Source: an uncultured Actinomycetota bacterium (GTDB lineage: Bacteria > Actinomycetota > Actinomycetes > UBA12327). Taken from it: 64,000 nucleotides of DNA. Position 1 is the first letter of the stretch. Each line of letters starts with the position of its first letter. Below the pieces are notes generated by a model, which saw only the letters and a list, made by a program, of their open reading frames with translations, had not been told where the DNA came from and searched no databases. A program made the translations under genes and the position numbers. The stretch spans positions 219,776 through 283,775 of the forward strand of contig CAWKKI010000011.1 in NCBI GenBank assembly GCA_963850215.1. Reading direction: 5' to 3'. Of this stretch, positions 4,551 to 21,043 are shown in pieces.

Positions 4551-4567
4551 GCGCTTCTCCTGCTCAG

Positions 4568-4804: not shown

Positions 4805-5236
4805 GTGCCGCACGCGCGCTTCCTCTTCGTCACAGGTCGCCTCATCGCTGGCGTCCCTTCCCCGCACTGGCCAGTTCTTGGTCGCGCCTTCTCTGGTGCT
4901 CCCGGTTACGACGGCTCGTGGGTTGCCTGGCGCGTATCGGGCACCAACAACCGCGAGCTTGGCCGCAGTGCCGAAGTCTTCGAGGATCTCGTGTCCTGCT
5001 TTGAGTCGGCGCTGTACCTGCAGCAGAACATCGGGCGCACCACTGCGGTCGTGGCTGCAGACCATGGCACCGGTCAATGGGTGTGGCAGTTGGACCTGGA
5101 CGGCAAGGCGATGGCCGTCGCGGGTCGCACGTACCAACGCCACCGCGAGTGCCGGCACAGCTTGGCGCAGTTCAGCGAGATCGTCGCCGACCCCACTGCC
5201 CTAGAGCGCATCGTCACTCGGCCAGGCGTCGCATGA
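4805..5236 (+). CDS. Hypothetical protein with two ~45-aa internal repeats (distantly YegP/DUF1508-like), translationally coupled to pstC
   Basis: GTG 4805 is the only in-frame start. Third-position GC is high. The repeats are WVAWRVSGTNNRELGRSAEVFEDLVSCFESALYLQQNI and WVWQLDLDGKAMAVAGRTYQRHRECRHSLAQFSEIV. An ATGA overlap with pstC lies at 5233-5236. Confidence 0.5.
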   Translation: MPHARFLFVTGRLIAGVPSPHWPVLGRAFSGAPGYDGSWVAWRVSGTNNRELGRSAEVFEDLVSCFESALYLQQNIGRTTAVVAADHGTGQWVWQLDLDGKAMAVAGRTYQRHRECRHSLAQFSEIVADPTALERIVTRPGVA

Positions 5237-7661: not shown

Positions 7662-9438
7662 CCCGCGCCAGAAAGAACAAGGACTCCGTGCGCAAGCGTT
7701 CTCTTCGTCGTGTTCGCACAATCCAACTTGTCGCTGCGGCAGTGGTGCTCGGCGCGTTGGGCGCCGCGCTGTCCGCGGGAGTGGGCCCAACCTCAGCCCA
7801 AGCTGCCTCATACGTTCCGGTCAGTGGCGCTGGCTCGACCTGGAGCCAGGTGGCGATGGATGCCTGGCGAGTCGACGTCGCGCAGTACGGGATGCGCATC
7901 GACTTCTCCGGTACGGGTTCGTCCGACGGTCGCAACCAGTTCCGCAACGGCACGGTCGACTTCGCGAACTCCGACATTCCTTACGGTCTGAAGGACACGG
8001 GCGTTATCGACCCACCCCCAACCCGCGGCTACGCATACATGCCGATCGTCGCCGGTGGCACCACGTTCATGTACAACCTCGTCATCGGTGGACACCGCGT
8101 CACCAACCTGCGGCTGTCCGGTCAGACGCTGACGAAGATCTTCACCAACAACATCACCAAGTGGAACGACCCAGCGATCGCCGCTGACAACCCTGGCTTA
8201 AGCCTTCCTGCACTGAAGATCGAGGTTGTCGTTCGTTCAGATGGATCTGGTTCAACCGCACAGTTCTCCGATTGGATGGCGTCGCAGTACCCATCCTTGT
8301 GGAACGGCTACTGCAGCAAGGCTGGGCGCCCGTCGCCCTGTGGCACCACGTCGTTCTACCCGACAGTCTCTGGACGAGTTTCACCGCACAGAACGGTGAC
8401 ACGGGCGTGGCCGGGTACGTGCAGCAGTCGCAGAACGTCGGCTCTATCGGCTATGTCGAGTACGCATATGCGATCGCGGCGCGCTTCCCGGTTGCGAAGA
8501 TCCTCAACAAGGCCGGCTACTTCACTGAGCCGACGGCACAGAACGTTGCCGTGTCTCTCCTCAAGGCTTCGATCAACACGGACAAGACGTCGCCCGCGTA
8601 TCTCACTCAGGTCCTGTCCGGCGTTTACAACGACACGGATCCGCGAACTTATCCACTGTCCAGTTACAGCTACATGATCATTCCGACTGCGACAACGTCG
8701 ACGTTCACCGCCGCAAAGGGCTACACGCTCGCCGCCTTCGGCTATTTCTTCTTATGCCAGGGGCAGCAGCAGGTCGACCAGCTTGGCTACTCCGCGCTGC
8801 CGATCAACCTCGTGCAGGCTGGCTTCGCGCAACTCAAGCGGATCCCGGGCGCCGTGGCGCAGACGATCAACATCAAGGGCTGCAACAACCCCACTTTCTC
8901 CAGCAGCGGGGCGAACACGCTTGCCACGACTGCACCGCAGCCAGCCAAGTGCGACAAGCAGAGCAAGTACCAGTGCTCTACGGGCACTGCAGGTGACTTG
9001 AGTCCAACGCCCATCTTGGCTTCGGCGGTGCTCCCGGGCAGTGGCTCGGTGTCGAACGGTGGCACGGGCAACACCTCCGGTACCGGTTCATCAGGAACTA
9101 GCGGGTCGGGGACCAATGGCGCCGGAACAACGGGCGCCGGAACAACGGGCGCCGGAACAACGGGCGCCGGAACGACCGGCGGTACCGGCACGGCAGGAAA
9201 CGGGACAACCGGTGCGGCCGGCACAGGAGGCACGGCAGGTACTACTAACACTGCCGGATCCAACCTCGCCGGGGGAGCCGCGACATCAGACGTGGCGGCA
9301 ATCGCAGTCACCGTTCCTGGCGCAGGCGAGTCGAGCAGTGACATCGCGCTGATTGTTGTGGCCGGACTGCTGCTGCTCGGCATCACGCTGGGACCTCCCG
9401 CGATGTCAGTCGCGATGCAACGAAAGAACAAGGAATGA
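7658..9438 (+). pseudogene. PstS-family phosphate-binding protein, C-terminally membrane-anchored, with its reading frame broken by a 1-nt indel
   Basis: Frame-2 ORF 7658..8677 gives a signal peptide (SAQA/AS) and the PstS N-lobe blocks SGAGSTW, GTGSSDG, VDFANSDIP and VRSDGSGST. Frame-1 ORF 8272..9438 continues with the C-lobe (NGDTGVAGYVQQSQNVGSIGYVEYAYA). A Gly/Thr/Ser linker and a C-terminal TM helix plus QRKNKE follow. The halves join only if one nucleotide is added between 8358 and 8376 (YPTVSG|TSFTAQNGD). Confidence 0.75.
9118..9177 (+). repeat. 15-bp tandem repeat x4 (GGCGCCGGAACAACG) encoding (GAGTT)n in the linker of the PstS-like protein
   Basis: Three DNA-identical copies occupy 9118-9162. 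A fourth copy at 9163-9177 has 2 substitutions. Confidence 0.9.
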
Positions 9439-11924
9439 GCACGCGCGGTCAGCACCGCGGTCGTCGGGAGAGCTTCCTGCGTGCCATGACGCGCGCAGGT
9501 GTCGGTACTTCGCTGATCGCAATCCTGGGACTTGTCGCGCTCACTTTTGCGACTGGTCCTGGACCAGCGAACGCAGCATCCACCAAGGCCAAGCCGCTCG
9601 CGGCCAGTTCGGGTTCTGCGCTCACGAAGAGTGGGTCGGGATCCTTTTCAGATCTCAAGGTCACCCTGAGTCAGACGCAAGACCTCGTGAACCAGGTAAT
9701 CAATGTCACCTGGACGGGCGCAGCCCCAACACAGCCGGCGTACGGAGGCTTCGGCATCAACTATCTGCAGATCATGCAGTGCTGGGGGGACGACTCGTCG
9801 GGGCCCACTCGCGAACAGTGCGAGTTTGGCGGCAACCCAGGTAACACCCTTGGCGGGAGTTGGACGTCGTCGCGGCAGACCACGTACAGCGGGCTGGTGG
9901 ATCCGAACGAGACCTACACCGTGCCCCCGGGCAGTTTTGCCAACGCCTACGTCCCATTCGACTCGGTCACCGGAACCGTCGAAAAGGATGGGGCTAGCTC
10001 CTTCTTCGACTCGTACACGACCAACGAGATTGACTACGCGCGCACTCACTCCGACGGCTCCGGCCAGGAGTACTTCCAGATCGACACCGGTGTGGAGGCT
10101 TCAGGGCTCGGCTGCGGCCAGTCCGAGAAGGTCGGCTCGACCTCTAAGCCACGTGCGTGCTGGCTCGTGGTCGTCCCGCGAAATGACATTGAGGTCGACG
10201 GCAGTACCCGTGACGCCACCGGTGTGAACGAGATCGTGTCCTCGCCGTTGAGTGCGACCAACTGGGCAAAGCGCATTGTGTTTCCACTCGGTTTCACAGC
10301 CGTCGGGCAGAACTGCCCAATCTCGGCGATCGCCGAGCCGACGAGCGGGGAAGAGACTGCGCTCGAGGCCGTAACCCGATGGCAACCAACCCTGTGCGCG
10401 AAGAACGGACCGGTCTTCGGTTACACCCAGTTGTCGTCGGACGTGTCGCGCAGCGTCTTGGCCTCAACCACCCCAAATCTGCAGTTCCTGTCGAGACCGC
10501 TAGACGCGACGGACGGGACCCCTGCGGGCAAGCCGGTCTATGCACCCGTATCTGTGTCGGGAGTCTCGATCGCATTCCTGATTGAACGACAGACGTCGCC
10601 AACCGCAGATCCAGCAGTGAAGGCTTCCGATGGGGTTCGAATGGGGACCCTGAATCTGACTCCGCGGCTTGTCGCGAAACTTCTGACTGAGTCCTACCGC
10701 GAGGCCGTTACCTCAGACGACGCGACTTACCTCGCGAACAACCCGCTCGACTTGACGCGCGATCCAGAGTTTCTTGCTCAAAACCCCGACTTTTCAACGT
10801 TGAAGTACCTCAACGGCATCTCGAGCATCATCGTGCCTACGGGTACGGCAGATGCGTACTACCAACTGTGGCAATGGATTTGGGCAAACGCTGACGCGCG
10901 CGCCTTCCTGCAGGGCAAGGCCGATCCCTACGGCGAGACCGTCAATCCCCACTACAAGACCCTGACTTTTCCTGCGGACAACTTCCCGAAGGCTGAACCG
11001 GCCTGCAGGACCTTCCCGTTGTCGACCATCTCCCGCCCGCCCCTCTGTGAGTTGGACGCGTTCCCGTACGCGATCAGCATGCACGCGGGAGCGCAGGCAG
11101 TCAGCGGCGGTAGCGACCTATCCAAGGACCTGTGGGACCCGACTGCGACACCGCCCTCCTACAAGGCATCGCCACCGCAGATCGAAGGCAACCGGGGACT
11201 CCTCGTGCTCGCGGACACCCCGACCGCAATTCGATACGGCCTGAATATGGCGAGCCTGCAGAATTCAGATGGTCAGTTCGTGGCCCCCACCACCACGAGC
11301 ATCACTGCGGGTTTGAAGACGTTCAAGGCGGATTCTGCTGGCGTACTGGAGCCGGTGGCGGCGACGAAGGTCAGCGGCGCATACCCGCTGACGACCATCA
11401 CCTACGCGGCAACTGCACCGTCAAAACTCACGCCTGCGTCCGCGCATGACTACGCAACTTTCCTGCGCTATGCAATCGGTTCAGGTCAAACCCTCGGCGT
11501 CGCGCCGGGCTCTCTCCCGTACGGCTACGTGCCGCTCACGTCTGGGCTAAAGGCAACAACTGCAACGGTCGCGAACGAACTCGCTGCCGTAAAGGCCACG
11601 AGTGCGACGCCGGCGTCGACGCCCACGACTGGCAACACGTCGGGCGAACTAGGTGACTCGTCAGGTGGCTCGACCGGTGACTCGTCGTCCGCTACCTCTC
11701 AGACAACTTCGAACGTTGCTGCGCCTACCGGAACCGGTAGCGCGACGCAACCAACCAGCACGTCGCCCGCTGGCGACGCGCTCTCCCTGACCCCCGCGGC
11801 CGTCCGCTCGCCATCGGTTCCGATCGGTGCTGTGCGATTCGCGCTCGTGGGCGCACTACTCATCGGAGGCATCGCGGCCGGCGCCGGTCCGTTGCTGATG
11901 AGGGCTTCACAGGTGGCGGTGTGA
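9435..11924 (+). CDS. Large secreted, C-terminally membrane-anchored protein with an unassigned N-terminal region and a divergent PBP-like C-terminal region
   Basis: 829 aa, with an ATGA overlap with the upstream gene. It has a signal peptide (GPANA/AS) and a ~300-aa Cys-containing region with no recognised family. PBP-like blocks are PVYAPVSVSGVSIAFL, LNLTPRLVAKLLT and AYPLTTITYAA. A Ser/Thr/Gly-rich linker and a terminal TM helix (FALVGALLIGGIAAGAGPLLM) follow. Confidence 0.8.
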   Translation: MSTRGQHRGRRESFLRAMTRAGVGTSLIAILGLVALTFATGPGPANAASTKAKPLAASSGSALTKSGSGSFSDLKVTLSQTQDLVNQVINVTWTGAAPTQPAYGGFGINYLQIMQCWGDDSSGPTREQCEFGGNPGNTLGGSWTSSRQTTYSGLVDPNETYTVPPGSFANAYVPFDSVTGTVEKDGASSFFDSYTTNEIDYARTHSDGSGQEYFQIDTGVEASGLGCGQSEKVGSTSKPRACWLVVVPRNDIEVDGSTRDATGVNEIVSSPLSATNWAKRIVFPLGFTAVGQNCPISAIAEPTSGEETALEAVTRWQPTLCAKNGPVFGYTQLSSDVSRSVLASTTPNLQFLSRPLDATDGTPAGKPVYAPVSVSGVSIAFLIERQTSPTADPAVKASDGVRMGTLNLTPRLVAKLLTESYREAVTSDDATYLANNPLDLTRDPEFLAQNPDFSTLKYLNGISSIIVPTGTADAYYQLWQWIWANADARAFLQGKADPYGETVNPHYKTLTFPADNFPKAEPACRTFPLSTISRPPLCELDAFPYAISMHAGAQAVSGGSDLSKDLWDPTATPPSYKASPPQIEGNRGLLVLADTPTAIRYGLNMASLQNSDGQFVAPTTTSITAGLKTFKADSAGVLEPVAATKVSGAYPLTTITYAATAPSKLTPASAHDYATFLRYAIGSGQTLGVAPGSLPYGYVPLTSGLKATTATVANELAAVKATSATPASTPTTGNTSGELGDSSGGSTGDSSSATSQTTSNVAAPTGTGSATQPTSTSPAGDALSLTPAAVRSPSVPIGAVRFALVGALLIGGIAAGAGPLLMRASQVAV

Positions 11925-12012: not shown

Positions 12013-13032
12013 GTGAATTTCAAGACAGCTCGACGCCTTGCGGTGGCCGCTGCCGCCGTGGCCGTCGTCGCCGGGGCGATCAGCGTGGGCTCTGCTTCCG
12101 CTGATCCGTCCGGCACTCCGACCTACCGTGAGTTTGCGGGCGTCGGTTCCGACACGGTGCAAGGCGTCTACAACGCGTTCAGCAACAACATCACCATCAG
12201 CAGCACGAAGGTCATTGGCTCGTATGACGCCACTGGCTCTGCCACGATCCAGACCAAGGCGACCGGCTGCTCGGCCGTCACGCGTCAGAACGGTTCGGGC
12301 GCTGGCAAGACCGGCCTGCTCGCGAGCCTCAACGCCAACGACGGTTGCGTCCAGTTCTCGCGTTCCTCCAGCGCGCCCTCCGGTACAACTTCGCCAAGCC
12401 TGACCTACGTCCCGTTCGCCACTGACGCTGTGACCTACATGGTCACGGCCACAAGCAACATCCCGCGCCAGCTCACGCAGGCGCAGCTCGTCAGCATCTA
12501 CGCGTGCGGTGGCGACCCGACCATCAAGGCGCTCGTGCCCCAGGCCGGTTCCGGTACCCGCTCATTCTGGGAGTCCAAGGTCAGCATCACCGACTCGAAC
12601 GTTGACTCGGTTGCCTACCCCTGCCTCAAGGACACGGTCAACTCCCAGAGCGTTGAGGAGCACGACGGTCGCGTCCTCGACGACAACTCCATCGCGCCGA
12701 TCTCCGTTGCGCAAAACATTGCTCAGGAGGAAGGCACGATCAGCGACATTCGTGGCCAGGCCGTTCTCGGCCAGATCTCGAACGCCGCTGGCACGTCCTA
12801 CGCCCTGCCGATCACGATGAACTCAGCAATTCCGTTCACTCGTGAGGTCTACAGCGTGATCCCGACCTCGGTCATCGGTGTGTCAACAGGCACGACTAAC
12901 GGCACCTCGAACGCGGATTACAACACCGTGTTTGTCGGCGGTTCGTCGCTGGTTTGTGCACAGAGCCTCACCATCCAGGCGTACGGATTCGCGATTGACC
13001 CAGCCTGTGGAACCACCAGTCAGCACACCTGA
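12013..13032 (+). CDS. Secreted PstS-like / type-2 periplasmic-binding-fold substrate-binding protein
   Basis: 339 aa. AAGGAG lies 8 nt upstream of GTG. It has a signal peptide and the blocks GVGSDTV, NGSGAGKTGL, VQFSRSS and VPQAGSGTRSFW. No anchor was recognised. Confidence 0.8.
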   Translation: MNFKTARRLAVAAAAVAVVAGAISVGSASADPSGTPTYREFAGVGSDTVQGVYNAFSNNITISSTKVIGSYDATGSATIQTKATGCSAVTRQNGSGAGKTGLLASLNANDGCVQFSRSSSAPSGTTSPSLTYVPFATDAVTYMVTATSNIPRQLTQAQLVSIYACGGDPTIKALVPQAGSGTRSFWESKVSITDSNVDSVAYPCLKDTVNSQSVEEHDGRVLDDNSIAPISVAQNIAQEEGTISDIRGQAVLGQISNAAGTSYALPITMNSAIPFTREVYSVIPTSVIGVSTGTTNGTSNADYNTVFVGGSSLVCAQSLTIQAYGFAIDPACGTTSQHT

Positions 13033-13075: not shown

Positions 13076-14638
13076 GTGTGGAATAAAAAGATTGCGCGGA
13101 CGTTCGCCGCGGTCAGTGCTACGGCACTGATCGTTGGCGGCGCCGCGATCGCAGCATCATCTGCTGCAAACGCCCTCACCGACGGCACGGCCGTCATTAC
13201 CGGTGGAACGACGACGACCTCGTCGCTCGTCCTCAACACCAACGGAACATGTGCAGACCCGAATGCCACGAACGTCGTGGTCAAGATCAGCGGTACCGGC
13301 TTCCCGGCCGGTGGCGCAAACGTCGTGGGCAACAGCCCGGCAAGCAACTTCGCTAGCGGTTCGAACTACTCGATTCCGATCAGCAACACGCTCCAGGTGA
13401 TCGGGAACGCGCAGTCTCCGGCCGTCGTCTACTCCGGCACCTACACGTTTGACGTGGTTTGCCGTACTGCGCTGAGCTCGACGTCCCTCGGAGACTTCTT
13501 GGGGACCATCACGTTCAGCACCCCCACCACATTTAGTGCCGACCCGGCCACGCCGATCGCCACTGGCACCACGTTGGCTCTCGGCACTGCAAGCCCGATC
13601 GCCTTCGGCACCTCGGAGACACTGACCGCCACCGTCACCGGTGGAGCCTCCGGTTCTGTGCAGTTCCAGGACAACCTGACCAACATCGGTTCACCGGTGG
13701 CCGTGAACGCCTCCGGCGTTGCTACCTACACGACCTCAGCGCTGGATGCTGGGTCGCACTCGCTCACCGCGGTGTTCACTGGCTACAACCCATCCAGCGT
13801 CACCGGCTCGACGTCGACTGCGCAGGACCTCACCGTCAACCAGACGACTAGTTCGACTGCCCTGAGCTTCACTCCCGCTTCAGGTGCGGACTCGAACACC
13901 TCGCTCGGCCTCACTGCAACGATCACACCGTCCGCCGCGGCGGGCACCGTTCAGTTCGTTGACGGTTCGACCAACATCGGCGGTCCGGTGAACGTCGTCA
14001 GCGGCGTGGCCTCCACGTCGGGGCTCTTCGCCGAGGGTGCTCACACGTTCCACGCGGTGTTCACACCTAGCGACCCCACCAATGTCGCGGGTTCGAACGA
14101 CGTCCAGCCGTACACCGTTTTGCACTACGGCGGCGTTACCGCTACTGACAACATCCAGACAGAGGTTCCCGCCGGTGGTCTCGTGATCAGCGTCGCGAGC
14201 CCGGGCGCCCAGGACCTCGGTCCGATGGCGCTTAACGGCACCAGCAACCTCTTGAACGTCACCGGCACTCTGCTCAACGTCACGGTGACTGACACCCGCG
14301 CTGGCACTCACGCTGGCTGGACTGCGTCCGGCATCGTCAGTGACTTCGCTGGTCCGACGGCATTCGCGATTGCTGGCGCCAACCTTGGTTGGACTCCCGC
14401 GGTCGTGAGCCACTCGCTGAACCAGACAGTCACCGCTGGACCGGCAGTTGCGTCGGCCCTTGGCGTCTACACGTCCGGCGAGACCGGCGGCCTGCACTCC
14501 ACGCAGACCCTCGCCTCTTCGGCTGCGTCGCCGAACTCGAACGGCACCGCGGTGCTGAACGCAGCGCTCAACCTGAACGCGCCCACTGACACCCCAGCGG
14601 GCACGTACGTCGCAACCCTCACGCTGACCGCCATCTGA
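13076..14638 (+). CDS. Secreted surface protein: shared N-domain + three bacterial Ig-like repeats + WxL-like C-terminal domain
   Basis: 520 aa with a signal peptide. Residues ~30-155 are the paralogous N-domain. The Ig-like repeats follow the pattern TLTATVTGGASGSVQFQD...GSHSLTAVFT. The C-terminal ~190 aa carry VTVTDTRAGTHAGWTASG and ANLGWTPAV, and end in AGTYVATLTLTAI. Confidence 0.8.
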   Translation: MWNKKIARTFAAVSATALIVGGAAIAASSAANALTDGTAVITGGTTTTSSLVLNTNGTCADPNATNVVVKISGTGFPAGGANVVGNSPASNFASGSNYSIPISNTLQVIGNAQSPAVVYSGTYTFDVVCRTALSSTSLGDFLGTITFSTPTTFSADPATPIATGTTLALGTASPIAFGTSETLTATVTGGASGSVQFQDNLTNIGSPVAVNASGVATYTTSALDAGSHSLTAVFTGYNPSSVTGSTSTAQDLTVNQTTSSTALSFTPASGADSNTSLGLTATITPSAAAGTVQFVDGSTNIGGPVNVVSGVASTSGLFAEGAHTFHAVFTPSDPTNVAGSNDVQPYTVLHYGGVTATDNIQTEVPAGGLVISVASPGAQDLGPMALNGTSNLLNVTGTLLNVTVTDTRAGTHAGWTASGIVSDFAGPTAFAIAGANLGWTPAVVSHSLNQTVTAGPAVASALGVYTSGETGGLHSTQTLASSAASPNSNGTAVLNAALNLNAPTDTPAGTYVATLTLTAI

Positions 14639-14667
14639 TTGGCCTAAGTGCGAGGTAGCTCCACACC

Positions 14668-14703
14668 GGGGGTGGGGCGGGTTCTCGGACCTGTCCCACC
14701 CCC
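14668..14703 (+). terminator. GC-rich stem-loop between the WxL-like and DUF916-like genes (possible intra-operon attenuator)
   Basis: GGGGGTGGG (14668-14676) pairs perfectly with CCCACCCCC (14695-14703) across an 18-nt loop. No U-tract follows. Confidence 0.35.
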
Positions 14704-14720
14704 ACCAAAAGCCCGGTGAC

Positions 14721-15857
14721 ATGAACGAACGATCTAGTGAACGGAAACGAGACGTGAAGCACCGCTTGCTCCGCCGTACGCGTGCAGGGGCTGCATTGTT
14801 CGCAGCACTCGCCTGTGTGCTCGCGTCGAGTGCACCCGCCTGGGCGTCCTCGCCCACCCCGTCTCCCAGTGCATCGCCCTCACCGACATCGAAGGCGGTG
14901 CCAGCGACGTTCGGGCTACAACCGGCGACAGCTGGCAAGCCCGATGCGCGCTCAGATTTCTCCTTCCAAGCCGAACCCGGCGCGACGGCGTCTGACGAAG
15001 TAGCGATCCAGAACTTCGCGTACAAGCCGATCACCCTGCAGCTCTACTCAGCCGACGGCTATAACACCTCCGACGGCGGCTTTAGCGTCCTACCGGCTGG
15101 TGACAAGTCGAGCGAGGTCGGGGCTTGGGTTGTGTTGCCCCGTGCTTCGGTGTCGATTCCTTCTCGCGGCAAAGTGATCGTGCCGTTTACGATCCGCGTG
15201 CCTGCTGCGGCCCTTCCGGGCGACCACGAAGGCGGCATTGTCGCATCTCTGACGACCTACGGGACTCGGCCAAACGGCGAGCAATTCAAGGTATTCAACC
15301 GCGTCGGCGATCGCGTGCTAGTCCGCGTGACTGGCGCCCTCACTGCGCATCTCGCGTTGAGCAACGTGCATGCCAGTTATACGGGTTCGCTTAATCCGGA
15401 CGGCAAGGGCTCTGTCCGAGTTTCCTACTCCGTCACAAACACGGGCAACGTGGTGTTGGGCGCCACCCAACTCGTCACCGTGAAAATGCTCTTCGGCTCT
15501 TCCGCCCGGACCACGGGGCTTCCGGTCTTGCCTGGCCTGCTTCCGGGTAACGGTGTCTCGCAAACGGTCACGCTGCCTGGAGTTTGGCCTCAACTCCGTG
15601 GCAAGGCCACGGTAATCATCCAGCCGTTGGCGCCTGCTGGCGTCAGCGCGCCATCTGCCTCAGAAGCTGTTGCGACCACGTCGTTCTGGGCTATCCCGTG
15701 GTCGACGATCGCGATCCTCCTGCTTATCGCGCTAGCCATGGCGGGCTGGTGGTACTGGCGCCATCGCCGAGCAACCTCGGGCGGCTCCTCGCGTGGCAAG
15801 CGCGCGCGCGGGAAGGTCCCGCCTACTCCCCAACCACAGAAGGAATTGGTGTCGTGA
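14721..15857 (+). CDS. DUF916/DUF3324-like (WxL-interacting-protein-like) surface protein with a C-terminal TM anchor
   Basis: 378 aa with a signal peptide. The N half (FGLQPA...DFSFQAEPGATASDEVAIQNFAYKPITLQLYSADGYN...GDHEGGIVASL) matches the DUF916 pattern. A second beta-rich half follows, then the TM helix ILLLIALAMAGWWYW and a basic tail. Confidence 0.8.
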   Translation: MNERSSERKRDVKHRLLRRTRAGAALFAALACVLASSAPAWASSPTPSPSASPSPTSKAVPATFGLQPATAGKPDARSDFSFQAEPGATASDEVAIQNFAYKPITLQLYSADGYNTSDGGFSVLPAGDKSSEVGAWVVLPRASVSIPSRGKVIVPFTIRVPAAALPGDHEGGIVASLTTYGTRPNGEQFKVFNRVGDRVLVRVTGALTAHLALSNVHASYTGSLNPDGKGSVRVSYSVTNTGNVVLGATQLVTVKMLFGSSARTTGLPVLPGLLPGNGVSQTVTLPGVWPQLRGKATVIIQPLAPAGVSAPSASEAVATTSFWAIPWSTIAILLLIALAMAGWWYWRHRRATSGGSSRGKRARGKVPPTPQPQKELVS

Positions 15858-16717
15858 ACTTCCGCAGGTACCGGCGTGTTCAGGCCGGATTACTAACGAG
15901 CGTCGTGGCTGTCGTGGTCATGGGCGGCGTTGTCGCCACTGCAAATGCCGCGCCAGTGCCCGCGCAATCGTCGATGAGCACTCTCTCGTTCAGCCCGGCA
16001 TCGGGCAACGACCAGACCCGCATGTCTGTCACCACGTCAGGGCCCTGCTCGGCAGGAACGAATCTGATCGTTCGCGTCTATGGGTACGGGTTCCCAACAC
16101 AGGGTCAGAACGTCGTGGGAAACACGGCCGTGTCGACCTTCGTTGAGACTGCAAACGGTGGTCGGGTAGTGCCCCTTGAAGACACGATGCGCAGTTTCGC
16201 GGCGCAGCAGGCGACCCCGTTTCTCCTGAAGGGCAAGTACACGTTCGGGCTGCGTTGCATCCAGCCGCTTCAGTGGGACACCCCGCTCGACCTGTTCACG
16301 GGTGCGATCAACTTCACCTCGGCCGGCGCTTACTCGGCGCTTCCAGCATCGGCCGCGAGCGTGCCCAAGGGTGCCAACAATGTGCCCGTCGCCACGACGA
16401 CCCCCAAGTCGTCGTCCACGACGCCAGCGAAATCGGCGACTCCTTCTTCAAGTCCGACGGCGGCTGTGAGTTCGACGCCAGCTAGCAGCGCCGCACCAAC
16501 AACGTCGGACGCTGGCTCGGTTCCAGGCGCCTCCTCGGGCGCCCAGGCGGCCGGGGCACCCGTCGCCTCAACCTCCCTGTCGGGTGGCGGTGGCTCGATG
16601 GCGTGGCCGCTCCTACTGGCGTTGGTCGCCATCGCGCTCATTGCCGCTGGCGTCTTCTGGTATTTCCGGCGCGAGCCGGCGTCCGCAAATCCGTCCGCGC
16701 ACCGCACGAGAAAGTGA
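15854..16717 (+). CDS. Secreted protein: shared N-domain + Ser/Thr/Pro/Ala-rich linker + C-terminal TM anchor
   Basis: ORF 15584..16717 was trimmed to GTG 15854 (GTGA overlap). It has a signal peptide (ATANA/AP). The N-domain carries GYGFPTQGQNVVG and YTFGLRC. The anchor is a TM helix LLLALVAIALIAAGVFWYF plus RRE. Confidence 0.75.
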   Translation: MNFRRYRRVQAGLLTSVVAVVVMGGVVATANAAPVPAQSSMSTLSFSPASGNDQTRMSVTTSGPCSAGTNLIVRVYGYGFPTQGQNVVGNTAVSTFVETANGGRVVPLEDTMRSFAAQQATPFLLKGKYTFGLRCIQPLQWDTPLDLFTGAINFTSAGAYSALPASAASVPKGANNVPVATTTPKSSSTTPAKSATPSSSPTAAVSSTPASSAAPTTSDAGSVPGASSGAQAAGAPVASTSLSGGGGSMAWPLLLALVAIALIAAGVFWYFRREPASANPSAHRTRK

Positions 16718-17946
16718 CCCCCGCAGTGAACATCTCCGACACGGCGAAGACCACTACCCGCACGACTGTGCGCCGGAGCAGGTCCGTGATGGCCGCTGGC
16801 ATCGTCTCGCTCGCCACGGCGATCGGCTTTGCCGGCGTTGCGTTGAACATGCCTGCCGCCTCGGCGGCTTCCGAGGGAGCACTGACAATCGCTCCCGCAA
16901 GCGGCACGGATACCTCATTGCTTACGGCGACGACTACAAGTACTTGTAGTGATCCGTCGGCTGACCACTTTTCAATCTCGATCTCGGGTAGTGGTTTCAC
17001 CGGTCAGGTCAATGTCGTCGGTACGTCCAGTCTCACCACGGTCACCTCGGGGAACGGCTATTCAGCTCCCATCCAGAACACGTTGGCCGTGATCGCTTCG
17101 CTCCAGTCGCCAGCAGTCGTCTACACCGGCGACTACGTCCTCGACTTCAAGTGCCGCAGTGCCATTAGCTCCACGAGTCTCGGCGACTTCACCGGAACGA
17201 TCCACTTCACCGACCCGCACACGTACACGTTCGTAGCACCAACGACGAGCCCTTCGACGTCGCCGTCAACGAGCCCCTCAACTAGCCCTTCGACGTCGCC
17301 GTCAACGAGCCCGTCAACAAGTCCTTCGACGAGCCCCTCAACCAGCCCGTCGACAAGTCCGTCGACGAGCCCCTCAACCAGCCCCTCAACCAGCCCATCG
17401 ACGTCGCCGTCCACGACCCCGTCCGACAGCACATCTGCGAGTGCAAGCCCCACCGACTCGACGAGTCAAATCACCTGTTCCGCGACCGATGACATGGGCA
17501 CACCGCTTGGCGACAACCCGACACTCGACCCGGGCCAGAACGTCAGCGTGACCGCCACGGGCTTTGCTGCGGCTGCCTCAGTTGATGTGACGGTGCATTC
17601 GACGCCGCAGGATCTCGGCACTGTTACAGCGGACTCCACGGGCACCGTCACTTACGCGTTCCTTGTGCCAACGACCCTCGAGGCGGGAGCGCACACTCTG
17701 GTGTTCACCTCGGGATCAACGACCGGGACGTATGCCTTTGTCGTCAGCACGACCGCGGCTACCACGGCGGCAGCCGACGGCGGTACGACCGATGGTGGGA
17801 CGACGGACACCGCTGGGTCGACGCTGCCTCACACCGGGGCTGATGTGGTCATCTACCTGCTTGTGGCTCTCATCCTGATGGTCACTGGAGTGGGTTTCCT
17901 CGCGTGGAGCGGTGGGCTCGTGACATCAAACGGACGGCACCGGTGA
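16714..17946 (+). CDS. LPXTG cell-wall-anchored protein: shared N-domain + (STSP)n linker + Ig-like domain + LPHTG sorting signal
   Basis: GTG 16714 forms a GTGA overlap, and GTG 16726 is an alternative start. It has a signal peptide (AASAAS) and an N-domain with GSGFTGQVNVVG and YVLDFKCR. The C-terminus is LPHTG + hydrophobic helix + GRHR. Confidence 0.8.
   Translation: MTPAVNISDTAKTTTRTTVRRSRSVMAAGIVSLATAIGFAGVALNMPAASAASEGALTIAPASGTDTSLLTATTTSTCSDPSADHFSISISGSGFTGQVNVVGTSSLTTVTSGNGYSAPIQNTLAVIASLQSPAVVYTGDYVLDFKCRSAISSTSLGDFTGTIHFTDPHTYTFVAPTTSPSTSPSTSPSTSPSTSPSTSPSTSPSTSPSTSPSTSPSTSPSTSPSTSPSTSPSTTPSDSTSASASPTDSTSQITCSATDDMGTPLGDNPTLDPGQNVSVTATGFAAAASVDVTVHSTPQDLGTVTADSTGTVTYAFLVPTTLEAGAHTLVFTSGSTTGTYAFVVSTTAATTAAADGGTTDGGTTDTAGSTLPHTGADVVIYLLVALILMVTGVGFLAWSGGLVTSNGRHR
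17245..17418 (+). repeat. Coding (Ser-Thr-Ser-Pro)n array of about 14 units of 12 nt with synonymous-codon variation
   Basis: The translation is TSPSTSPSTSP...STTPS. Ser is coded by AGC/TCG/TCA/AGT/TCC and Pro by CCT/CCG/CCC/CCA. Only short stretches are DNA-identical. Confidence 0.9.
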
Positions 17947-18947
17947 TCACGGTGCTTGAGCGCACGTTGGTAGCCATCGCTTCGGGGTCGCTTCTCGCCG
18001 GCGCCTTGGTGTTGCAGGCTGGGGCGGCCCACGCCGTTTCGGTCGGCAGTCTTACCGTTGCCCCAACCTCGGGCAGCGACGCGTCTCTCTTGACGTTGGC
18101 GACCGGAAGTACCTGCACGGATTCGTCTGCCACCTACGTCTCGGTTGCGATCAGCGGCTCCGGATTCGCTGCGGGTGGCACGAATGTTGTGGGCGCTGCC
18201 CAGATCAGTGACCTCACTCATTCGGCAACGGGGTATGTGATCCAGGTCAGCAACACGCTGGCCGCGATCGCGTCACTTCAGCATCCCGCGGTCACTTATG
18301 TCGGCGACTACACCTTCGACGTCAAATGTCGGTTGGCTCTGGACTTCACCAGCCTGGGCGACTTCACAGCAACGATCCACTTCAGCGATCCGCACACGTG
18401 GTCCGTGGTGAGCGGCACTGCGCCGCACTTCACCATCGCGGCGCACCTCACCGGAACCGCTCGTGTTGGCTACACCTCGGGTTGCTCGGCGTCGGTCACT
18501 GGCTCGACCAGCCTTCAATACGTATGGCTGCGCAACGGCGTCACCATCTCAGGCGCCACGCACTCCACCTACGTGGTGCAGCCGGCCGACAATGCCCACA
18601 CCTTGGCATGCGAGCTGATCGCCAAGAACGCTGCCGGTTCCACGACGAGCAAGGCCGCGGCCCGTTATGTCGAGCCCGGCTATCTGCACAACGTGGTGCA
18701 TCCGACTCTCTCCGGTCACGCCATCCACGGCTACACGTTGGCCTGCCGAGCGGGTGCCTGGTCACCGGCACCCAGCCATTACGCATATGGCTGGCTGCTC
18801 AACGGTGTTCACATCCGAGGCGCGGCGGCAAGCACGTTGAAGTTGGCGACCACCTACAAGGCGCACACGATCGCTTGTCAGGTCACTGCGTCAAAGACCG
18901 GATACCTCAGCGTCACAGTGCGAACGAGCGCGGTGAAGGTCAGCTGA
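17943..18947 (+). CDS. Secreted protein: shared N-domain + two Ig-like repeats, no anchor recognised
   Basis: ORF 17904..18947 was trimmed to GTG 17943 (GTGA overlap). It has a signal peptide (QAGAAHA) and an N-domain with GSGFAAGGTNVVG and YTFDVKCR. Two ~80-aa repeats follow the pattern G..L.C...W...P..YAYGWLLNG..I.GA...Y......H.IAC.V.A. Confidence 0.75.
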   Translation: MITVLERTLVAIASGSLLAGALVLQAGAAHAVSVGSLTVAPTSGSDASLLTLATGSTCTDSSATYVSVAISGSGFAAGGTNVVGAAQISDLTHSATGYVIQVSNTLAAIASLQHPAVTYVGDYTFDVKCRLALDFTSLGDFTATIHFSDPHTWSVVSGTAPHFTIAAHLTGTARVGYTSGCSASVTGSTSLQYVWLRNGVTISGATHSTYVVQPADNAHTLACELIAKNAAGSTTSKAAARYVEPGYLHNVVHPTLSGHAIHGYTLACRAGAWSPAPSHYAYGWLLNGVHIRGAAASTLKLATTYKAHTIACQVTASKTGYLSVTVRTSAVKVS

Positions 18948-18949
18948 CC

Positions 18950-20035
18950 GTGTCCCTTGACTCCGAGGCCGCTCTGGCCGTTGGTACTGAACCGGTAGCG
19001 CCGGTCGCCAACGGCCAGTCCGGTGCTGTGCCGTCCAACGGGACTCACGTAACAGAACTCGCGGCGCCCAACCCCGCGGAGATGGTCGACCTGCCGCACC
19101 CGGACCTCGGCACGCCGAGCACCGAGTTGCAGGTCGATGCCGACGATCATCTAGTCGATGACGACGACGAGGAGTCGACGGCCGCCCCACGCCGCGACGG
19201 GCTCTGGATCATGGGCGTCGCCCTGACCACACTCGGCGTCATCGTGCTCGGCTTTCTGGCTGCATTCCTGGTGATCGGCCCGATCAAGTACCACCGTGCG
19301 CAGACCGTGGAGTACGCGCAACTGCGCTACGAACTCGCGAACTCGATCGCGCCGGTCGGTCAAACCGACTACAACGGCAAGCTTCTGACCCCTGGCACAC
19401 CAGTGGCTCTGCTCAGCATCCCGGCCATCAAGCTGACGACGGTTGTGTCCGAGGGCACGACTGGCGAGATCCTGCAGAACGGGCCTGGACATCGGCGTGA
19501 CAGCGCGATGCCAGGGCAGCCCGGAGCCAGCGTCATCTATGCGCGTCGGCTCGGCTTCGGCGGTCCGTTCGGATCTCTGCCTTCGTTGAAGCCCGGTGAC
19601 CCGATCTACGTGACTACCGGACAAGGCGTCTCGACGTACACCGTTGCGGACGTGCGCTACGCCGGGGACAAAGAACCGTCGGTGCAGATCAATCACGGCT
19701 TGCTCAGTCTGGTTACCGCCGGCGGCTCGCGCTTCCTGCCCAACGGAGTTGTAGCCGTTGACGCGAATCTGACGTCGACACCGCAGCAGGCGCCCGGTGC
19801 CGTGATCGGCTCTAACGCCCTGAGCCGCTCGGAAGGCCCGATGCAGGGCGATCCGAGTGCTTGGGTCGGGCTCGTGCTCTGGGGTGAGCTACTCGTTGGC
19901 GCGACGGTCGCCATGGTGTGGGCGCGCAAGCGATGGGGGATATGGCAAGCCTGGATTGTTGGCGTTCCCGTAGTCGTTCTCCTGGGAGTTCTGGTTGCCA
20001 ACCAGATCACCACCTTGCTACCGAACATGCTGTGA
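18950..20035 (+). CDS. Sortase-fold homologue lacking the catalytic His, Cys and probably Arg (cysteine-free), with one N-terminal and two C-terminal TM helices
   Basis: ORF 18326..20035 was trimmed to GTG 18950, 2 nt after the previous stop. The blocks GPGHRRDSAMPGQPGASVIYARRLGFGGPFGSLPSLKPGDPIYV and LLSLVTAGG align by eye to the sortase GH-PG / IAGHR / GAPF / GD and TLxTC blocks. There is no Cys anywhere in the 361 aa. Confidence 0.75.
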   Translation: MSLDSEAALAVGTEPVAPVANGQSGAVPSNGTHVTELAAPNPAEMVDLPHPDLGTPSTELQVDADDHLVDDDDEESTAAPRRDGLWIMGVALTTLGVIVLGFLAAFLVIGPIKYHRAQTVEYAQLRYELANSIAPVGQTDYNGKLLTPGTPVALLSIPAIKLTTVVSEGTTGEILQNGPGHRRDSAMPGQPGASVIYARRLGFGGPFGSLPSLKPGDPIYVTTGQGVSTYTVADVRYAGDKEPSVQINHGLLSLVTAGGSRFLPNGVVAVDANLTSTPQQAPGAVIGSNALSRSEGPMQGDPSAWVGLVLWGELLVGATVAMVWARKRWGIWQAWIVGVPVVVLLGVLVANQITTLLPNML

Positions 20036-20041
20036 GCACTG

Positions 20042-21043
20042 ATGACTAACGAGGGTGAAATGACAGCCACCGACGACTTCTCCATCGCACTGCCCGACGC
20101 AAACGGGCATGCAGCGAACGGCCTCGCCGCGACCCTGCCGGCATACGCGGGAGCCCCAGCGATGACGGTCATCCCCGGACAGCCGATGCCACACGTGGCA
20201 CCGCCGGTGCCGCAGCAACCCGACGAGGTCGTGCTTCCGGGCGCTCGGCCCAACGGTGTTCGCGGCGCGATCGGAGACCTCGACGCACGCTCGATCTCTG
20301 CCTGGTTCGGCGATCACAAGGTGCTCGACCGAGTCTCGTTGCACATGCCGAGTGGCGAGGTAACCGCGCTTATTGGACCTTCCGGTTGCGGCAAGTCGAC
20401 GTTCCTGCGCACGTTGAATCGCATGCACGAGTTGATCCCGTCGGCATCCCTGGCCGGCGAGGTTCTCCTCGACGGCCAGGACATCTACGCGCCCGATCGG
20501 CGCCTCACCGAGGCACGACGACAGATCGGGATGGTCTTTCAACGCCCCAACCCTTTCCCCGCGATGTCCATTTACGACAACGTGATCGCGGGGCTGAAGC
20601 TCACCGGCAAGAAGGCGTCGACGGCTGAGAAGGACGGAATTGTCGAGACGCACTTATGAAGGCCGGGCTGTGGAAGGAAGTCAAGGACCGGCTGCGGCAG
20701 CCAGGCGGTGGACTTTCCGGTGGTCAGCAGCAGCGGCTGTGCATCGGACGGGCCCTTGCGTATCCAGCCGCGCGTGCTGCTTATGGACGAGCCATGTTCG
20801 GCGCTCGACCCGACGTCGACGCGCCGAATCGAGCAGACGATCGTCGAGCTTCGCGAAGAAGTGACGATCGTCATCGTCACGCACAACATGCAGCAGGCCG
20901 CGCGCGTCTCAAGCCGATGTGCCTTCTTCCTGGCGGAGGCCGGCACGCCAGGCGTGATAGTCGAGCACGGCTCAACCGAGGCGATGTTCGAAACTCCGCG
21001 CGACCCGCGCACCGCCGACTACGTGAATGGGCGCTTCGGTTAG
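20042..21043 (+). pseudogene. pstB: Phosphate ABC transporter ATP-binding protein PstB, interrupted by two compensating frameshifts
   Basis: Frame 2 (20042..20659) carries Walker [10 protein letters not shown] and ends at TGA 20657. Frame 1 (20656 to ~20760) carries [31 protein letters not shown]. Frame 2 resumes from 20762 with [33 protein letters not shown] and YVNGRFG. There is also an unusual ~75-aa Pro-rich N-terminal extension. Confidence 0.8.

What the first reader, a model, noticed from the sequence alone, without database searches (positions are those of the whole stretch)
13160..18420. Unassigned ~125-aa secreted domain shared by four consecutive paralogues
The mature N-termini of four proteins align by eye over about 125 residues. 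The proteins are 13076..14638, 15854..16717, 16714..17946 and 17943..18947. They share two invariant Cys about 85 residues apart (T/P-C near the start and the C of Y-x-F/L-x-V/F/L-V/K/R-C-R/I near the end). They also share G-S/T/Y-GF, NVVG, and F-T/L-G/A-T/A-I-x-F-S/T. Example segments are ISGSGFAAGGTNVVG...YTFDVKCR...SLGDFTATIHFSDP and ISGTGFPAGGANVVG...YTFDVVCR...SLGDFLGTITFSTP. Each copy is fused to a different C-terminal fate: Ig repeats plus WxL-like, linker plus TM, (STSP)n plus LPXTG, or Ig repeats only. I cannot assign this domain to any family I know. One head presented on four different anchors suggests a shared ligand or a shared docking partner.
Basis: seen in the sequence. Interest (0 to 1): 0.7.

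Follow-up and report, generated by a model that had tools for sequence, protein, structure and literature searches.

The report
Unannotated surface domain in phosphate-transporter cluster
Four neighbouring secreted proteins of an actinobacterium share a real, previously unannotated ~125-residue immunoglobulin-like domain, which in every related genome examined lies inside a phosphate-transporter operon next to a catalytically dead sortase; this suggests a cell-surface apparatus linked to phosphate uptake that I could not find described.

Summary
Exactly four copies of a ~125-aa domain occur in the window, and their pairwise BLAST E-values run from 1e-6 to 1e-41. Each copy follows a signal peptide and is fused to a different anchor: a divergent WxL domain, a TM helix, LPHTG, or a terminal Ig pair. 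An exhaustive HMMER search finds 491 relatives, all apparently actinobacterial. Pfam, NCBIfam and PDB sequence searches find nothing. AlphaFold2 gives a confident β-sandwich (pLDDT 95.8) with no significant structural neighbour; the best is RoxP at TM 0.51. All 155 domain copies examined have exactly two Cys in the same columns, so a disulfide is likely. In 13 of 13 loci with enough flank the genes lie between pstC-pstA-pstS plus two extra PstS-like proteins and pstB. A sortase homologue is always present, and it lacks the catalytic Cys and His in 120 of 120 relatives. My best reading is a shared binding head of a Pst-linked envelope complex of the WxL type. It most likely docks the cluster's secreted PstS-like protein, or relays a phosphorus ligand as NEAT domains relay haem. 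The function is inferred, not shown.

The parts
13076..14638 (+). Gene A (520 aa): signal peptide, N-domain, two Big_3_5 Ig repeats, divergent C-terminal WxL domain
   Evidence: ORF and translation. Big_3_5 at E 5e-21. WxL at 19.8 bits, E 8.5e-4, for aa ~402-516; orthologues score 25.7-34.4 bits against a gathering threshold of 25.
13178..13558 (+). N-domain copy 1
   Evidence: Family HMM hit at 2.5e-41. AF2 model pLDDT 95.8.
14668..14703 (+). 16-bp GC-rich hairpin between gene A and the WxLIP-like gene
   Evidence: RNA fold -43.7 kcal/mol, z = -3.0. No U-tract follows it.
14721..15857 (+). WxLIP-like (DUF916) protein with a C-terminal TM helix
   Evidence: PF06030 WxLIP_PGBD at 26.8 bits against a threshold of 27.3. 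Relatives fused to the N-domain reach E 1.3e-10. TM at aa 322-340.
15854..16717 (+). Gene B (287 aa): signal peptide, N-domain, S/T/P/A-rich linker, TM helix
   Evidence: Translation. TM at aa 253-271.
15968..16357 (+). N-domain copy 2 (the most divergent, about 30% identical to the others)
   Evidence: Family HMM hit at 1.9e-47. Alignment.
16714..17946 (+). Gene C (410 aa): signal peptide, N-domain, (TSPS)14, conserved ~95-aa domain, LPHTG sorting signal, TM helix
   Evidence: Translation. LPXTG anchor profile at E 0.0015. LPHTG at 17824-17838, TSPS run at 17245-17412, extra domain at 17470-17748. The C-terminal part is conserved in relatives.
16864..17256 (+). N-domain copy 3
   Evidence: Family HMM hit at 5.1e-41.
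17943..18947 (+). Gene D (334 aa): signal peptide, N-domain, two Ig_2-like Cys-containing repeats, no recognisable anchor
   Evidence: Translation. Ig_2 at E 3e-4. The repeat pair is always C-terminal in relatives.
18033..18425 (+). N-domain copy 4
   Evidence: Family HMM hit at 1.3e-42.
18953..20035 (+). Sortase-fold membrane protein lacking the catalytic Cys and His (pseudo-sortase); the start codon is uncertain
   Evidence: Pfam Sortase at E 3e-16. Class E sortase model at 75.8 bits against a cutoff of 160. The Cys position is A/G/T/S/V in 120 of 120 homologues, and G-R replaces G-H-R.
5077..7661 (+). pstC (5077-6261) and pstA (6258-7661) permease genes at the head of the cluster
   Evidence: BPD_transp_1 hits. 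The L001 orthologues pass the NCBIfam PstC and PstA equivalog cutoffs.
7658..9438 (+). pstS with a Gly/Thr/Ser-rich linker and a C-terminal TM anchor; split here by a frameshift near 8374
   Evidence: PBP_like_2 and TIGR00975 hits fall on two ORFs. Orthologues are continuous. Frameshift mapped. TM.
9435..11924 (+). 829-aa secreted protein with a PstS-like C-terminal part, an unassigned N-terminal half and a C-terminal TM helix
   Evidence: TIGR00975 at E 2e-10 over aa 602-713. No PDB or Pfam match for the remainder. Present in every related locus.
12013..13032 (+). 339-aa secreted, anchor-less, distantly PstS-like protein, always immediately upstream of the first N-domain gene
   Evidence: TIGR02136 at E 0.02 here and 1e-5 for the L001 orthologue. 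Only the signal-peptide hydrophobic segment is found. Synteny.
20042..21043 (+). pstB ATPase gene closing the cluster; carries two compensating frameshifts (about 20650 and 20760) and an in-frame stop
   Evidence: ABC_tran hit. Comparison with intact L001 PstB, which scores 332.8 bits on TIGR00972.

Best explanation
Shown by the analyses: the ~125-aa region is a genuine extracellular domain family that Pfam and NCBIfam do not annotate. It is confidently predicted to be an Ig-like β-sandwich. It carries two invariant cysteines, at the positions just after strand B and on strand F where Ig domains usually have their disulfide, plus an invariant G-x-G-F-P..G loop and a G-x-Y motif. It is a signature component of a conserved actinobacterial gene cluster. 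In that cluster a Pst-type phosphate ABC transporter (pstC, pstA, a TM-tethered pstS, pstB) encloses two extra PstS-like proteins, one or more N-domain surface proteins, often a WxLIP/DUF916 protein, and a catalytically dead sortase homologue.

Inferred mechanism: the domain is the common binding head of this envelope complex. The carriers place the same head at the membrane (TM-anchored B), covalently in the wall (LPXTG-anchored C), non-covalently on peptidoglycan (WxL-anchored A, held by WxLIP), and possibly free or peripheral (D). I consider the most likely single role to be protein-protein docking. On this reading the heads retain and position the cluster's own secreted, anchor-less PstS-like protein, and possibly the 829-aa one, at several depths of the thick wall. 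Phosphate captured outside would then be handed to the membrane-tethered PstS and the PstCAB permease. The overall logic resembles the Isd/NEAT haem relay.
For: The domain is real and forms a family. There are four copies with pairwise E-values of 1e-6 to 1e-41. Exhaustive HMMER finds 491 representatives at E<=1e-3 and 256 at E<=1e-10.

The fold is confident: pLDDT 95.8, pTM 0.88.

A disulfide is likely: 155 of 155 copies have exactly two Cys in the same columns.

The location is extracellular. The domain sits after an AxA signal peptide in most members. In WxLIP fusions it lies between TM2 and TM3, a topology that also places it outside.

Partner domains are only Ig stalks and anchors, never enzymes: Big_3_5 in 35 of 90, WxLIP_PGBD in 14, WxL in 4, plus LPXTG and TM anchors.

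Synteny is pstC-pstA-pstS, a ~800-aa protein, a ~335-aa protein, the N-domain proteins, the pseudo-sortase, then pstB. It holds in all 13 loci with enough flank, including a Streptosporangiaceae MAG, Streptomyces niveus and Brooklawnia.

The ~335-aa PstS-like protein has no anchor. It is always the gene just before the first N-domain gene.

The transporter is Pst-like. The L001 PstC and PstA pass the equivalog cutoffs, and PstS and PstB fall just below them.

The anchors vary between loci, but at least one N-domain protein is always present.
Against: No binding was tested, and no complex prediction could be run.

The strongly conserved residues are Gly, Pro, Cys and aromatic residues, which are structural. 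Surfaces vary, with pI from 4.1 to 9.4. A single conserved partner interface is therefore not evident.

The four paralogues in this genome are only 30-58% identical.

The disulfide could not be checked in the model because no coordinates were available.

In this window pstS and pstB are disrupted. If those disruptions are real, the surface genes persist here without a working transporter.

The Brooklawnia protein falls below the HMM threshold, so the link between the domain and the cluster is less clear-cut at long evolutionary range.
Confidence: 0.4

Rival explanations
1. Ligand relay, like NEAT domains. The N-domain itself binds the transporter's substrate or a precursor of it, such as orthophosphate, polyphosphate or an organophosphate. 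It would do so through the invariant glycine-rich G-x-G-F-P..G loop, whose backbone amides could form an anion-binding site. The ligand would then pass inward between heads held at different wall depths until it reaches the tethered PstS.
For: The system-level parallels with Isd/NEAT are close. Both have a ~125-aa Ig-like domain present in 1-4 copies per protein. Both occur in several paralogues that are membrane-inserted, sortase-anchored or secreted. Both are encoded inside an ABC-transporter locus with a sortase homologue (NEAT properties from PMC7815599). The Gly-rich loop is invariant. A Pst-type transporter is always adjacent.
Against: There is no conserved Arg, Lys, Ser, Thr or Asp constellation of the kind that binds phosphate in PstS. 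The pI is variable. A relay for a small, freely diffusing anion has no precedent. The cluster already encodes three PstS-like binding proteins. There is no homology to NEAT: no Pfam hit, no NEAT chain among the 50 Foldseek PDB matches returned, and no YxxxY motif.
Confidence: 0.25
2. Adhesin head. The domain binds an external surface or polymer, such as mineral particles, plant or fungal material, or other cells. The pst linkage would reflect only co-regulation under phosphate starvation, or the scavenging of particle-bound phosphate.
For: In Firmicutes the N-terminal domains of large WxL proteins are regarded as host- or substrate-binding (PMC10599100, PMC9772566, PMC1534035). The architecture here is a head on Ig stalks with wall anchors. 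Variable surfaces and paralogue divergence are typical of adhesins.
Against: The synteny is very tight and order-conserved inside the transporter operon, between pstS and pstB, in every locus. That is more than co-regulation needs. The membrane-proximal B-type proteins and the fusions to WxLIP place heads deep in the wall, where external surfaces cannot be reached.
Confidence: 0.15
3. Structural cap or spacer. The domain is just another Ig-like stalk module, perhaps a very divergent Big or FN3-type domain, with no binding function of its own.
For: The fold is a generic β-sandwich. The Foldseek neighbours are FN3 domains and the Ig-like domains of GH2 enzymes. The conserved residues are mostly structural.
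Against: Profile-profile comparison with the adjacent Big_3_5 repeats gives a probability of 0.3%, and with WxLIP 0.2%. The domain is kept as the only folded extracellular module in B-type proteins, which are just head, linker and TM. At least one copy is present in every cluster. Moderately conserved polar positions exist: N54, T75, Q83 and R100.
Confidence: 0.08
4. Chance or low-complexity similarity among Ser/Thr/Ala/Gly-rich secreted proteins.
For: The proteins are compositionally biased. The word-indexed homology search nearly failed on them.
Against: Pairwise E-values reach 1e-41. There are 256 database relatives at E<=1e-10. Cys, Gly and Tyr columns are invariant. AF2 confidence is high.
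Confidence: 0.01

Closest known systems
NEAT domains of the Isd haem-uptake system (Firmicutes; PMC7815599)
   Same: Both are Ig-like β-sandwich domains of about 125 residues. Both occur in one to several copies in multiple paralogous envelope proteins that are membrane-inserted, sortase-anchored or secreted. Both are encoded within or next to an ABC-transporter operon that also carries a sortase homologue. In Isd the proteins sit at different wall depths.
   Different: No sequence or specific structural similarity was found. There is no S/YxxxY motif. The transporter is Pst-type (phosphate), not haem or siderophore. The linked sortase homologue is catalytically dead. The host phylum is Actinomycetota. 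No ligand binding has been shown.
WxL / Csc cell-surface clusters of Lactobacillales and relatives (PMC1534035, PMC9772566, PMC10599100)
   Same: Both have a large WxL protein with N-terminal functional domains and a C-terminal WxL domain. Both have a DUF916-type WxLIP with a TM helix and an LPXTG protein. Both are co-encoded with nutrient-uptake genes.
   Different: Only one WxL protein is detectable and there is no small WxL protein. The WxL and WxLIP domains are very divergent and score near or below the Pfam thresholds. The cluster lies inside a pst operon and carries a pseudo-sortase and extra PstS-like proteins. Some related clusters lack WxL and WxLIP altogether (L016). One paper reports that over 91% of known WxL sequences are in Firmicutes (PMC9772566).
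RoxP of Cutibacterium acnes (PDB 7BCJ), the best Foldseek match
   Same: RoxP is a β-sandwich of similar size (chain of 142 residues); by name it is a Cutibacterium (actinobacterial) protein. The match has TM 0.51 and probability 0.97.
   Different: The E-value is only 0.078, sequence identity is 14%, and the PDB profile search does not find it even at E<=10. RoxP is a stand-alone protein and is not part of such a cluster. The resemblance is at the level of fold only.
Big_3_5 and other bacterial Ig-like stalk domains
   Same: All are all-β modules of Gram-positive surface proteins. Big_3_5 repeats lie directly next to the N-domain in the same proteins.
   Different: Profile-profile probability of homology is 0.3%. 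The N-domain is longer (~125 aa against ~90 aa). It has an invariant Cys pair and a Gly-rich loop that Big_3_5 lacks.

Membership tests
Any curated protein family (Pfam-A 2025 copy, NCBIfam 20.0) | Profile hit covering the ~125-aa region | tested here: not met
   No hit at E<=1 on the four window proteins. None on 50 diverse domain-only sequences beyond scattered single chance hits at E>=0.012. In 90 full-length relatives only the flanking domains hit.
Any solved structure (PDB) | Sequence-profile or fold match | tested here: not met
   The profile searches gave no meaningful hit: the 50-sequence profile found nothing at E<=10, and the four-sequence profile found only one partial match, to a designed protein ('Scone-R'), E 0.0016. 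Foldseek with the pLDDT 95.8 model gives a best E of 0.078 and TM 0.51, and nothing at E<=1e-3. The BFVD viral library also gave nothing.
NEAT domain | Match to the Pfam NEAT profile | tested here: not met
   No NEAT hit.
NEAT domain | S/YxxxY haem-ligating motif on strand β8 (PMC7815599) | tested here: not met
   A Tyr is invariant in G-x-Y, but the position four residues on is not Tyr in the family consensus.
NEAT domain | Ig-like fold, in several envelope proteins encoded near an ABC transporter | tested here: met
   β-sandwich model. One to four copies per protein, with TM, LPXTG, WxL or no anchor. Located inside a pst operon in all loci. This shows analogy, not homology.
NEAT domain | Haem or haemoprotein binding | not testable with these tools
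   This needs biochemistry. No haem or iron genes are in the cluster.
WxL cluster (definition of Hassan et al. 2023, PMC10599100: at least one WxLIP and at least two WxL proteins within four genes) | At least one WxLIP (DUF916 plus a second Ig-like domain plus a TM helix) | tested here: inconclusive
   PF06030 scores 26.8 bits against a gathering threshold of 27.3 for 14721-15857. A TM helix is present. Fused relatives reach E 1.3e-10. The second (HBD) domain was not detected by Pfam.
WxL cluster (definition of Hassan et al. 2023, PMC10599100: at least one WxLIP and at least two WxL proteins within four genes) | At least two WxL-domain proteins, including a small one | tested here: not met
   Only gene A has a WxL-like C-terminus (19.8 bits; orthologues 25.7-34.4 bits). 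No small WxL ORF was found in the cluster.
Big_3_5 bacterial Ig-like domain | Profile similarity to the Big_3_5 repeats of the same proteins | tested here: not met
   hhalign probability 0.3%.
Sortase (the neighbouring gene at 18953-20035) | Catalytic Cys of the TLxTC motif and catalytic His | tested here: not met
   The Cys column is A (102), G (11), T (5), S (1) or V (1) in 120 homologues. G-R replaces G-H-R. Scores on the class-specific models are 56-76 bits against cutoffs of 140-165.
Pst phosphate ABC transporter (the flanking genes) | NCBIfam equivalog scores for PstS, PstC, PstA and PstB | tested here: inconclusive
   In the intact L001 orthologues PstC scores 253 against a cutoff of 196 and PstA 220 against 193, so both pass. 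PstS scores 196 against 205 and PstB 333 against 343, so both fall just below. The substrate was not tested.

The most novel reading that the evidence does not exclude
The domain is the working head of an actinobacterial phosphorus-harvesting envelope apparatus that I could not find described in the searchable literature. In it, one Ig-like module displayed on membrane, covalent-wall, WxL and free carriers would capture and relay a phosphorus-containing ligand, or shuttle PstS-like carriers, across the thick wall to a tethered PstS and the PstCAB permease. A catalytically dead sortase would serve as a scaffold. This would be a phosphate-system counterpart of the Isd/NEAT haem relay, widespread from Streptomyces to Propionibacteriales.
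Probability: 0.2. Interest if true: 0.85.

Novelty: new variant of a known kind. Interest (0 to 1): 0.6.

Why it matters
How actinobacteria move scarce phosphate through a thick, polymer-rich wall is poorly understood. Apart from chaplins and pili, few of their surface-protein systems have assigned functions. If the inferences hold, the work identifies three things. The first is a new, easily recognisable domain family, with an HMM available from 155 copies, that could be deposited as a new family. The second is a conserved operon architecture that physically couples a Pst transporter to WxL/WxLIP-type and sortase-signal surface proteins. The third is a large family of proteins annotated as 'sortase' or 'class E sortase' that cannot be transpeptidases. 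The cluster occurs in culturable, genetically tractable genera such as Streptomyces and Kitasatospora. The hypotheses are therefore directly testable, and the mis-annotation of the pseudo-sortases can be corrected.

Tried and rejected
**Searches that failed or were uninformative**
- The word-indexed homology search was almost blind to this family. It gave 1 hit with A1 and 0 hits with A2. The exhaustive HMMER search was needed.
With A1 it found only one locus. The metagenome scan gave five loci, all close relatives.
- Exact look-ups of two window proteins found nothing, so the source organism stays unidentified. The closest relatives are JGI metagenome proteins 92-94% identical to gene A's C-terminal part and to the pseudo-sortase; the gene D counterpart P0005 is less close (64% over the C-terminal part).
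- The first AF2 model, from only four sequences, was mediocre (pLDDT 70.6) and its Foldseek hits were generic. The 50-sequence model superseded it.
- A PHO-box-like direct repeat (GTTCACN5GTTCAC, up to 2 mismatches) was not enriched: 7 matches against 6.4 expected, and none in the promoter region. There is no evidence either way for PhoP control.
- PADLOC found no defence-system hits.
- PDB sequence searches with the 829-aa and 339-aa proteins found nothing.
- Seven literature searches found no description of the domain, the pst-embedded cluster or the Cys-less sortases. A 2026 Actinoplanes sortase paper and a 2026 epibiont-defence preprint were checked and are unrelated.

**Hypotheses rejected**
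- A divergent Big_3_5 domain.
- A divergent WxLIP domain.
- NEAT homology.
- Chance similarity.

Full report
**Observation.** The region holds four intact, co-directional genes: A 13076-14638, B 15854-16717, C 16714-17946 and D 17943-18947. B, C and D each start at a GTGA overlap with the stop codon of the preceding gene. Each protein begins with a signal peptide that ends in an AxA motif.

The segments that follow align over 127-135 residues with 19 invariant columns. These include both cysteines, G-x-G-F, N-V-V-G, G-x-Y and F...I.F. Pairwise BLASTP E-values range from 1e-6 (B against C) to 1e-41 (C against D). A family HMM finds exactly these four places in the six-frame translation of the 64-kb window, at 1e-41 to 1e-47.

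The one correction is that the Cys pair is about 70 residues apart, not about 85.

**C-terminal fates.**
- A has two Big_3_5 repeats and a divergent WxL domain. A itself scores 19.8 bits, and its orthologues score 25.7-34.4 bits against a threshold of 25.
- B has a Ser/Thr/Pro/Ala-rich linker and a TM helix.
- C has (TSPS)14, a conserved ~95-aa domain, LPHTG and a TM helix.
- D ends in two Ig_2-like repeats that are always C-terminal in relatives.

**Is it a known domain?** No family covers the region.
- Pfam-A (2025 copy) and NCBIfam 20.0 give nothing on the four proteins.
- Pfam gives only isolated chance hits on 50 diverse domain-only sequences. On 90 full-length relatives only the flanking domains hit.
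- PDB sequence-profile searches find no relative. The 50-sequence profile found nothing even at E<=10. The four-sequence profile found only one partial match, to a designed protein, at E 0.0016.
- Profile-profile comparison excludes a divergent Big_3_5 repeat (probability 0.3%) and a WxLIP domain (0.2%).

**Family.** The word-indexed search nearly failed. An exhaustive HMMER scan of 1.84 billion representative proteins found 491 proteins at E<=1e-3, 256 at E<=1e-10 and 16 at E<=1e-30. In the best 150, the domain sits directly after a signal peptide in most cases. It occurs one to four times per protein, alternating with Ig repeats. In 560-760-aa proteins it follows a DUF916 module.

Those fusions have three hydrophobic segments: WxLIP, TM1, TM2, N-domain, TM3. 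This topology again puts the domain outside the cell.

All 155 full-length domain copies contain exactly two Cys, in the same two columns. Other residues conserved at 80% or more are P, G, G-x-G-F-P..G, G-x-Y and F. The pI ranges from 4.1 to 9.4. The sources name these proteins 'hypothetical protein' or name them after their other domains.

**Structure.** With four sequences AlphaFold2 gave only pLDDT 70.6. With a 50-sequence alignment it gave pLDDT 95.8 and pTM 0.88, an all-β sandwich of eight to nine strands with one short helix.

Foldseek against the PDB returned nothing at E<=1e-3. The best hit was the protein RoxP (7BCJ; E 0.078, TM 0.51), followed by the Ig-like domains of GH2 enzymes and FN3 domains. 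The viral library gave nothing.

The fold is therefore a generic Ig-like sandwich, but the family has no close structural relative among solved structures. The two Cys lie just after the second strand and on the sixth strand, the usual B-F position of an Ig disulfide.

**Context.** The four genes are part of a larger cluster, in this order:
- pstC (5077-6261) and pstA (6258-7661);
- pstS with a Gly/Thr-rich linker and a C-terminal TM helix (7658-9438);
- an 829-aa protein with a PstS-like C-terminal part and a TM helix (9435-11924);
- an anchor-less 339-aa PstS-like protein (12013-13032);
- gene A;
- a DUF916/WxLIP-like TM protein (14721-15857);
- genes B, C and D;
- a sortase homologue (18953-20035);
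- pstB (20042-21043).

Every related locus with enough flank shows the same order: pstC-pstA-pstS, a ~800-aa protein, a ~335-aa protein, the N-domain proteins with or without WxLIP, the sortase homologue, then pstB. The loci are:
- a Streptosporangiaceae MAG (L001) and five metagenome contigs (L003-L007);
- L008, L009 and L012;
- L013, which has a second pst-type cluster in tandem, and L015;
- Streptomyces niveus L016, where a single LASTG-anchored protein carries a divergent N-domain (HMM E 4e-12);
- Brooklawnia L017, where the head keeps the Cys pair and the leading LTVTPTSG motif but falls below the HMM threshold.

In the intact L001 orthologues PstC and PstA pass NCBIfam's equivalog cutoffs. 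PstS and PstB miss theirs narrowly. The transporter is therefore Pst-type.

**The sortase homologue is dead.** I aligned it with S. aureus SrtA and ten orthologues and then with 120 database homologues. The catalytic Cys of TLxTC is A (102), G (11), T (5), S (1) or V (1), and never Cys. The catalytic His of G-H-R is replaced, leaving an invariant G-R.

These proteins have an N-terminal TM helix, two C-terminal TM helices and a conserved C-terminal LPNL motif. Databases annotate them as 'sortase', 'sortase A' or 'class E sortase'. Carriers include Streptomyces, Kitasatospora, Streptacidiphilus, Actinocrinis, Plantactinospora, Actinoplanes, Agromyces, Cryobacterium, Promicromonospora, Myceligenerans and Brooklawnia. 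I found no description of them in the searchable literature.

**Interpretation: what is shown.** The region is a real, extracellular, probably disulfide-stabilised Ig-like domain family without annotation. It partners only with stalk and anchor modules. It is a constant element of a Pst-embedded envelope gene cluster that is widespread in Actinomycetota.

**Interpretation: what is inferred.** The domain is the common binding head of that apparatus.

I rank protein docking first, at about 0.4. On this reading the heads retain the anchor-less 339-aa PstS-like protein, whose gene always immediately precedes the first head-bearing gene, and possibly the 829-aa protein as well. Three points favour docking:
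- An unanchored binding protein needs a tether.
- Any anchor type would serve, which matches the observed turnover of anchors between loci while at least one head is always kept.
- The strongly conserved residues of the domain are structural rather than a polar ligand site.

Second, at about 0.25, is a NEAT-like relay in which the invariant Gly-rich loop binds a phosphorus ligand directly. The system-level parallel with Isd is striking (PMC7815599), but there is no homology and no conserved phosphate-binding constellation.

An adhesin role (about 0.15) and a purely structural role (about 0.08) are less consistent with the operon-internal position, the membrane-proximal B-type proteins and the universal retention of the head.

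**Comparison with known systems.** The cluster shares parts with Firmicute Csc/WxL clusters: a large WxL protein, a WxLIP and an LPXTG protein (PMC1534035, PMC9772566, PMC10599100). It fails their working definition, because only one WxL protein is present and there is no small one. It also adds a Pst transporter, extra PstS-like proteins and a pseudo-sortase. It works like Isd/NEAT in layout only. I classify it as a new variant of known kinds of Gram-positive surface-display systems, containing a new domain family.

**Caveats.**
- No binding data exist, and no complex prediction could be run.
- The AlphaFold DB and several InterPro member databases could not be searched.
- Most close relatives come from metagenomes without taxonomy.
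- The subscription literature is not covered by the search tools.
- In this window pstS carries one frameshift and pstB carries two compensating ones. These may be sequencing errors or real decay.

Noticed in passing
window 18953-20035 (+); also P0156-P0275: The 'sortase' next to the paralogues lacks the catalytic Cys (A, G, T, S or V instead) and the catalytic His (G-R instead of G-H-R) in all 120 homologues examined. It has one N-terminal and two C-terminal TM helices and a conserved C-terminal LPNL motif. It is widely annotated as sortase or class E sortase in Streptomyces, Kitasatospora, Actinoplanes, Agromyces and other genera. It always sits just before pstB.
   Followed up: yes
window 8374; window 20650-20760: pstS is split by one frameshift. 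pstB has two compensating frameshifts about 105 nt apart, which put the LSGGQ signature out of frame and create an in-frame stop. Orthologues in L001 and other loci are intact. These are either sequencing errors or decay of the transporter while the surface genes stay intact.
   Followed up: partly
window 7658-9438 and 9435-11924: PstS and the 829-aa PstS-like protein are tethered by long Gly/Thr/Ser-rich linkers and C-terminal TM helices rather than by lipoprotein anchors. The N-terminal ~550 residues of the 829-aa protein match nothing in Pfam, NCBIfam or the PDB.
   Followed up: partly
window 14668-14703 (+): A perfect 16-bp GC-rich hairpin (-43.7 kcal/mol for the intergenic segment, z = -3.0) lies between gene A and the WxLIP-like gene. 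No U-tract follows it. It may be an mRNA stabiliser or attenuator that sets different expression levels within the operon.
   Followed up: partly
P0023, P0039, P0046, P0049, P0085, P0097 (relatives); L008 1079-2854, L015 10001-11704: In 14 of 90 relatives the WxLIP/DUF916 protein and a B-type N-domain protein are fused into one polypeptide with three TM segments. This is a Rosetta-stone-type link between WxLIP and the N-domain.
   Followed up: partly
window 18436-18944 (gene D, C-terminal part); relatives: The pair of Cys-containing Ig_2-like repeats at the end of gene D is found at the extreme C-terminus of many relatives of quite different lengths. It may be a fifth kind of anchoring or binding module rather than plain stalk.
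   Followed up: no
L013 1-13070 and 14250-21212: One metagenome contig carries two pst-type clusters in tandem. The second starts with pstB-pstC-pstA-pstS followed by a ~900-aa PstS-like protein.
   Followed up: no
window 4567-4641 (-) and about 4820-5076 (+): A tRNA-Leu gene lies just upstream of the cluster. The stretch before pstC encodes a peptide that by eye resembles the N-terminal extension of the L001 pstC ORF. In L016 the corresponding upstream gene has a faint DUF1508 hit.
   Followed up: no
L016 8512-9903 (Streptomyces niveus): The single N-domain protein of the Streptomyces cluster ends in LASTG plus a TM helix and a basic tail, which looks like the LAxTG type of sorting signal associated (from my own knowledge, not tested here) with class E sortases. 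If so, an active sortase encoded elsewhere must process it, because the adjacent homologue is dead.
   Followed up: no
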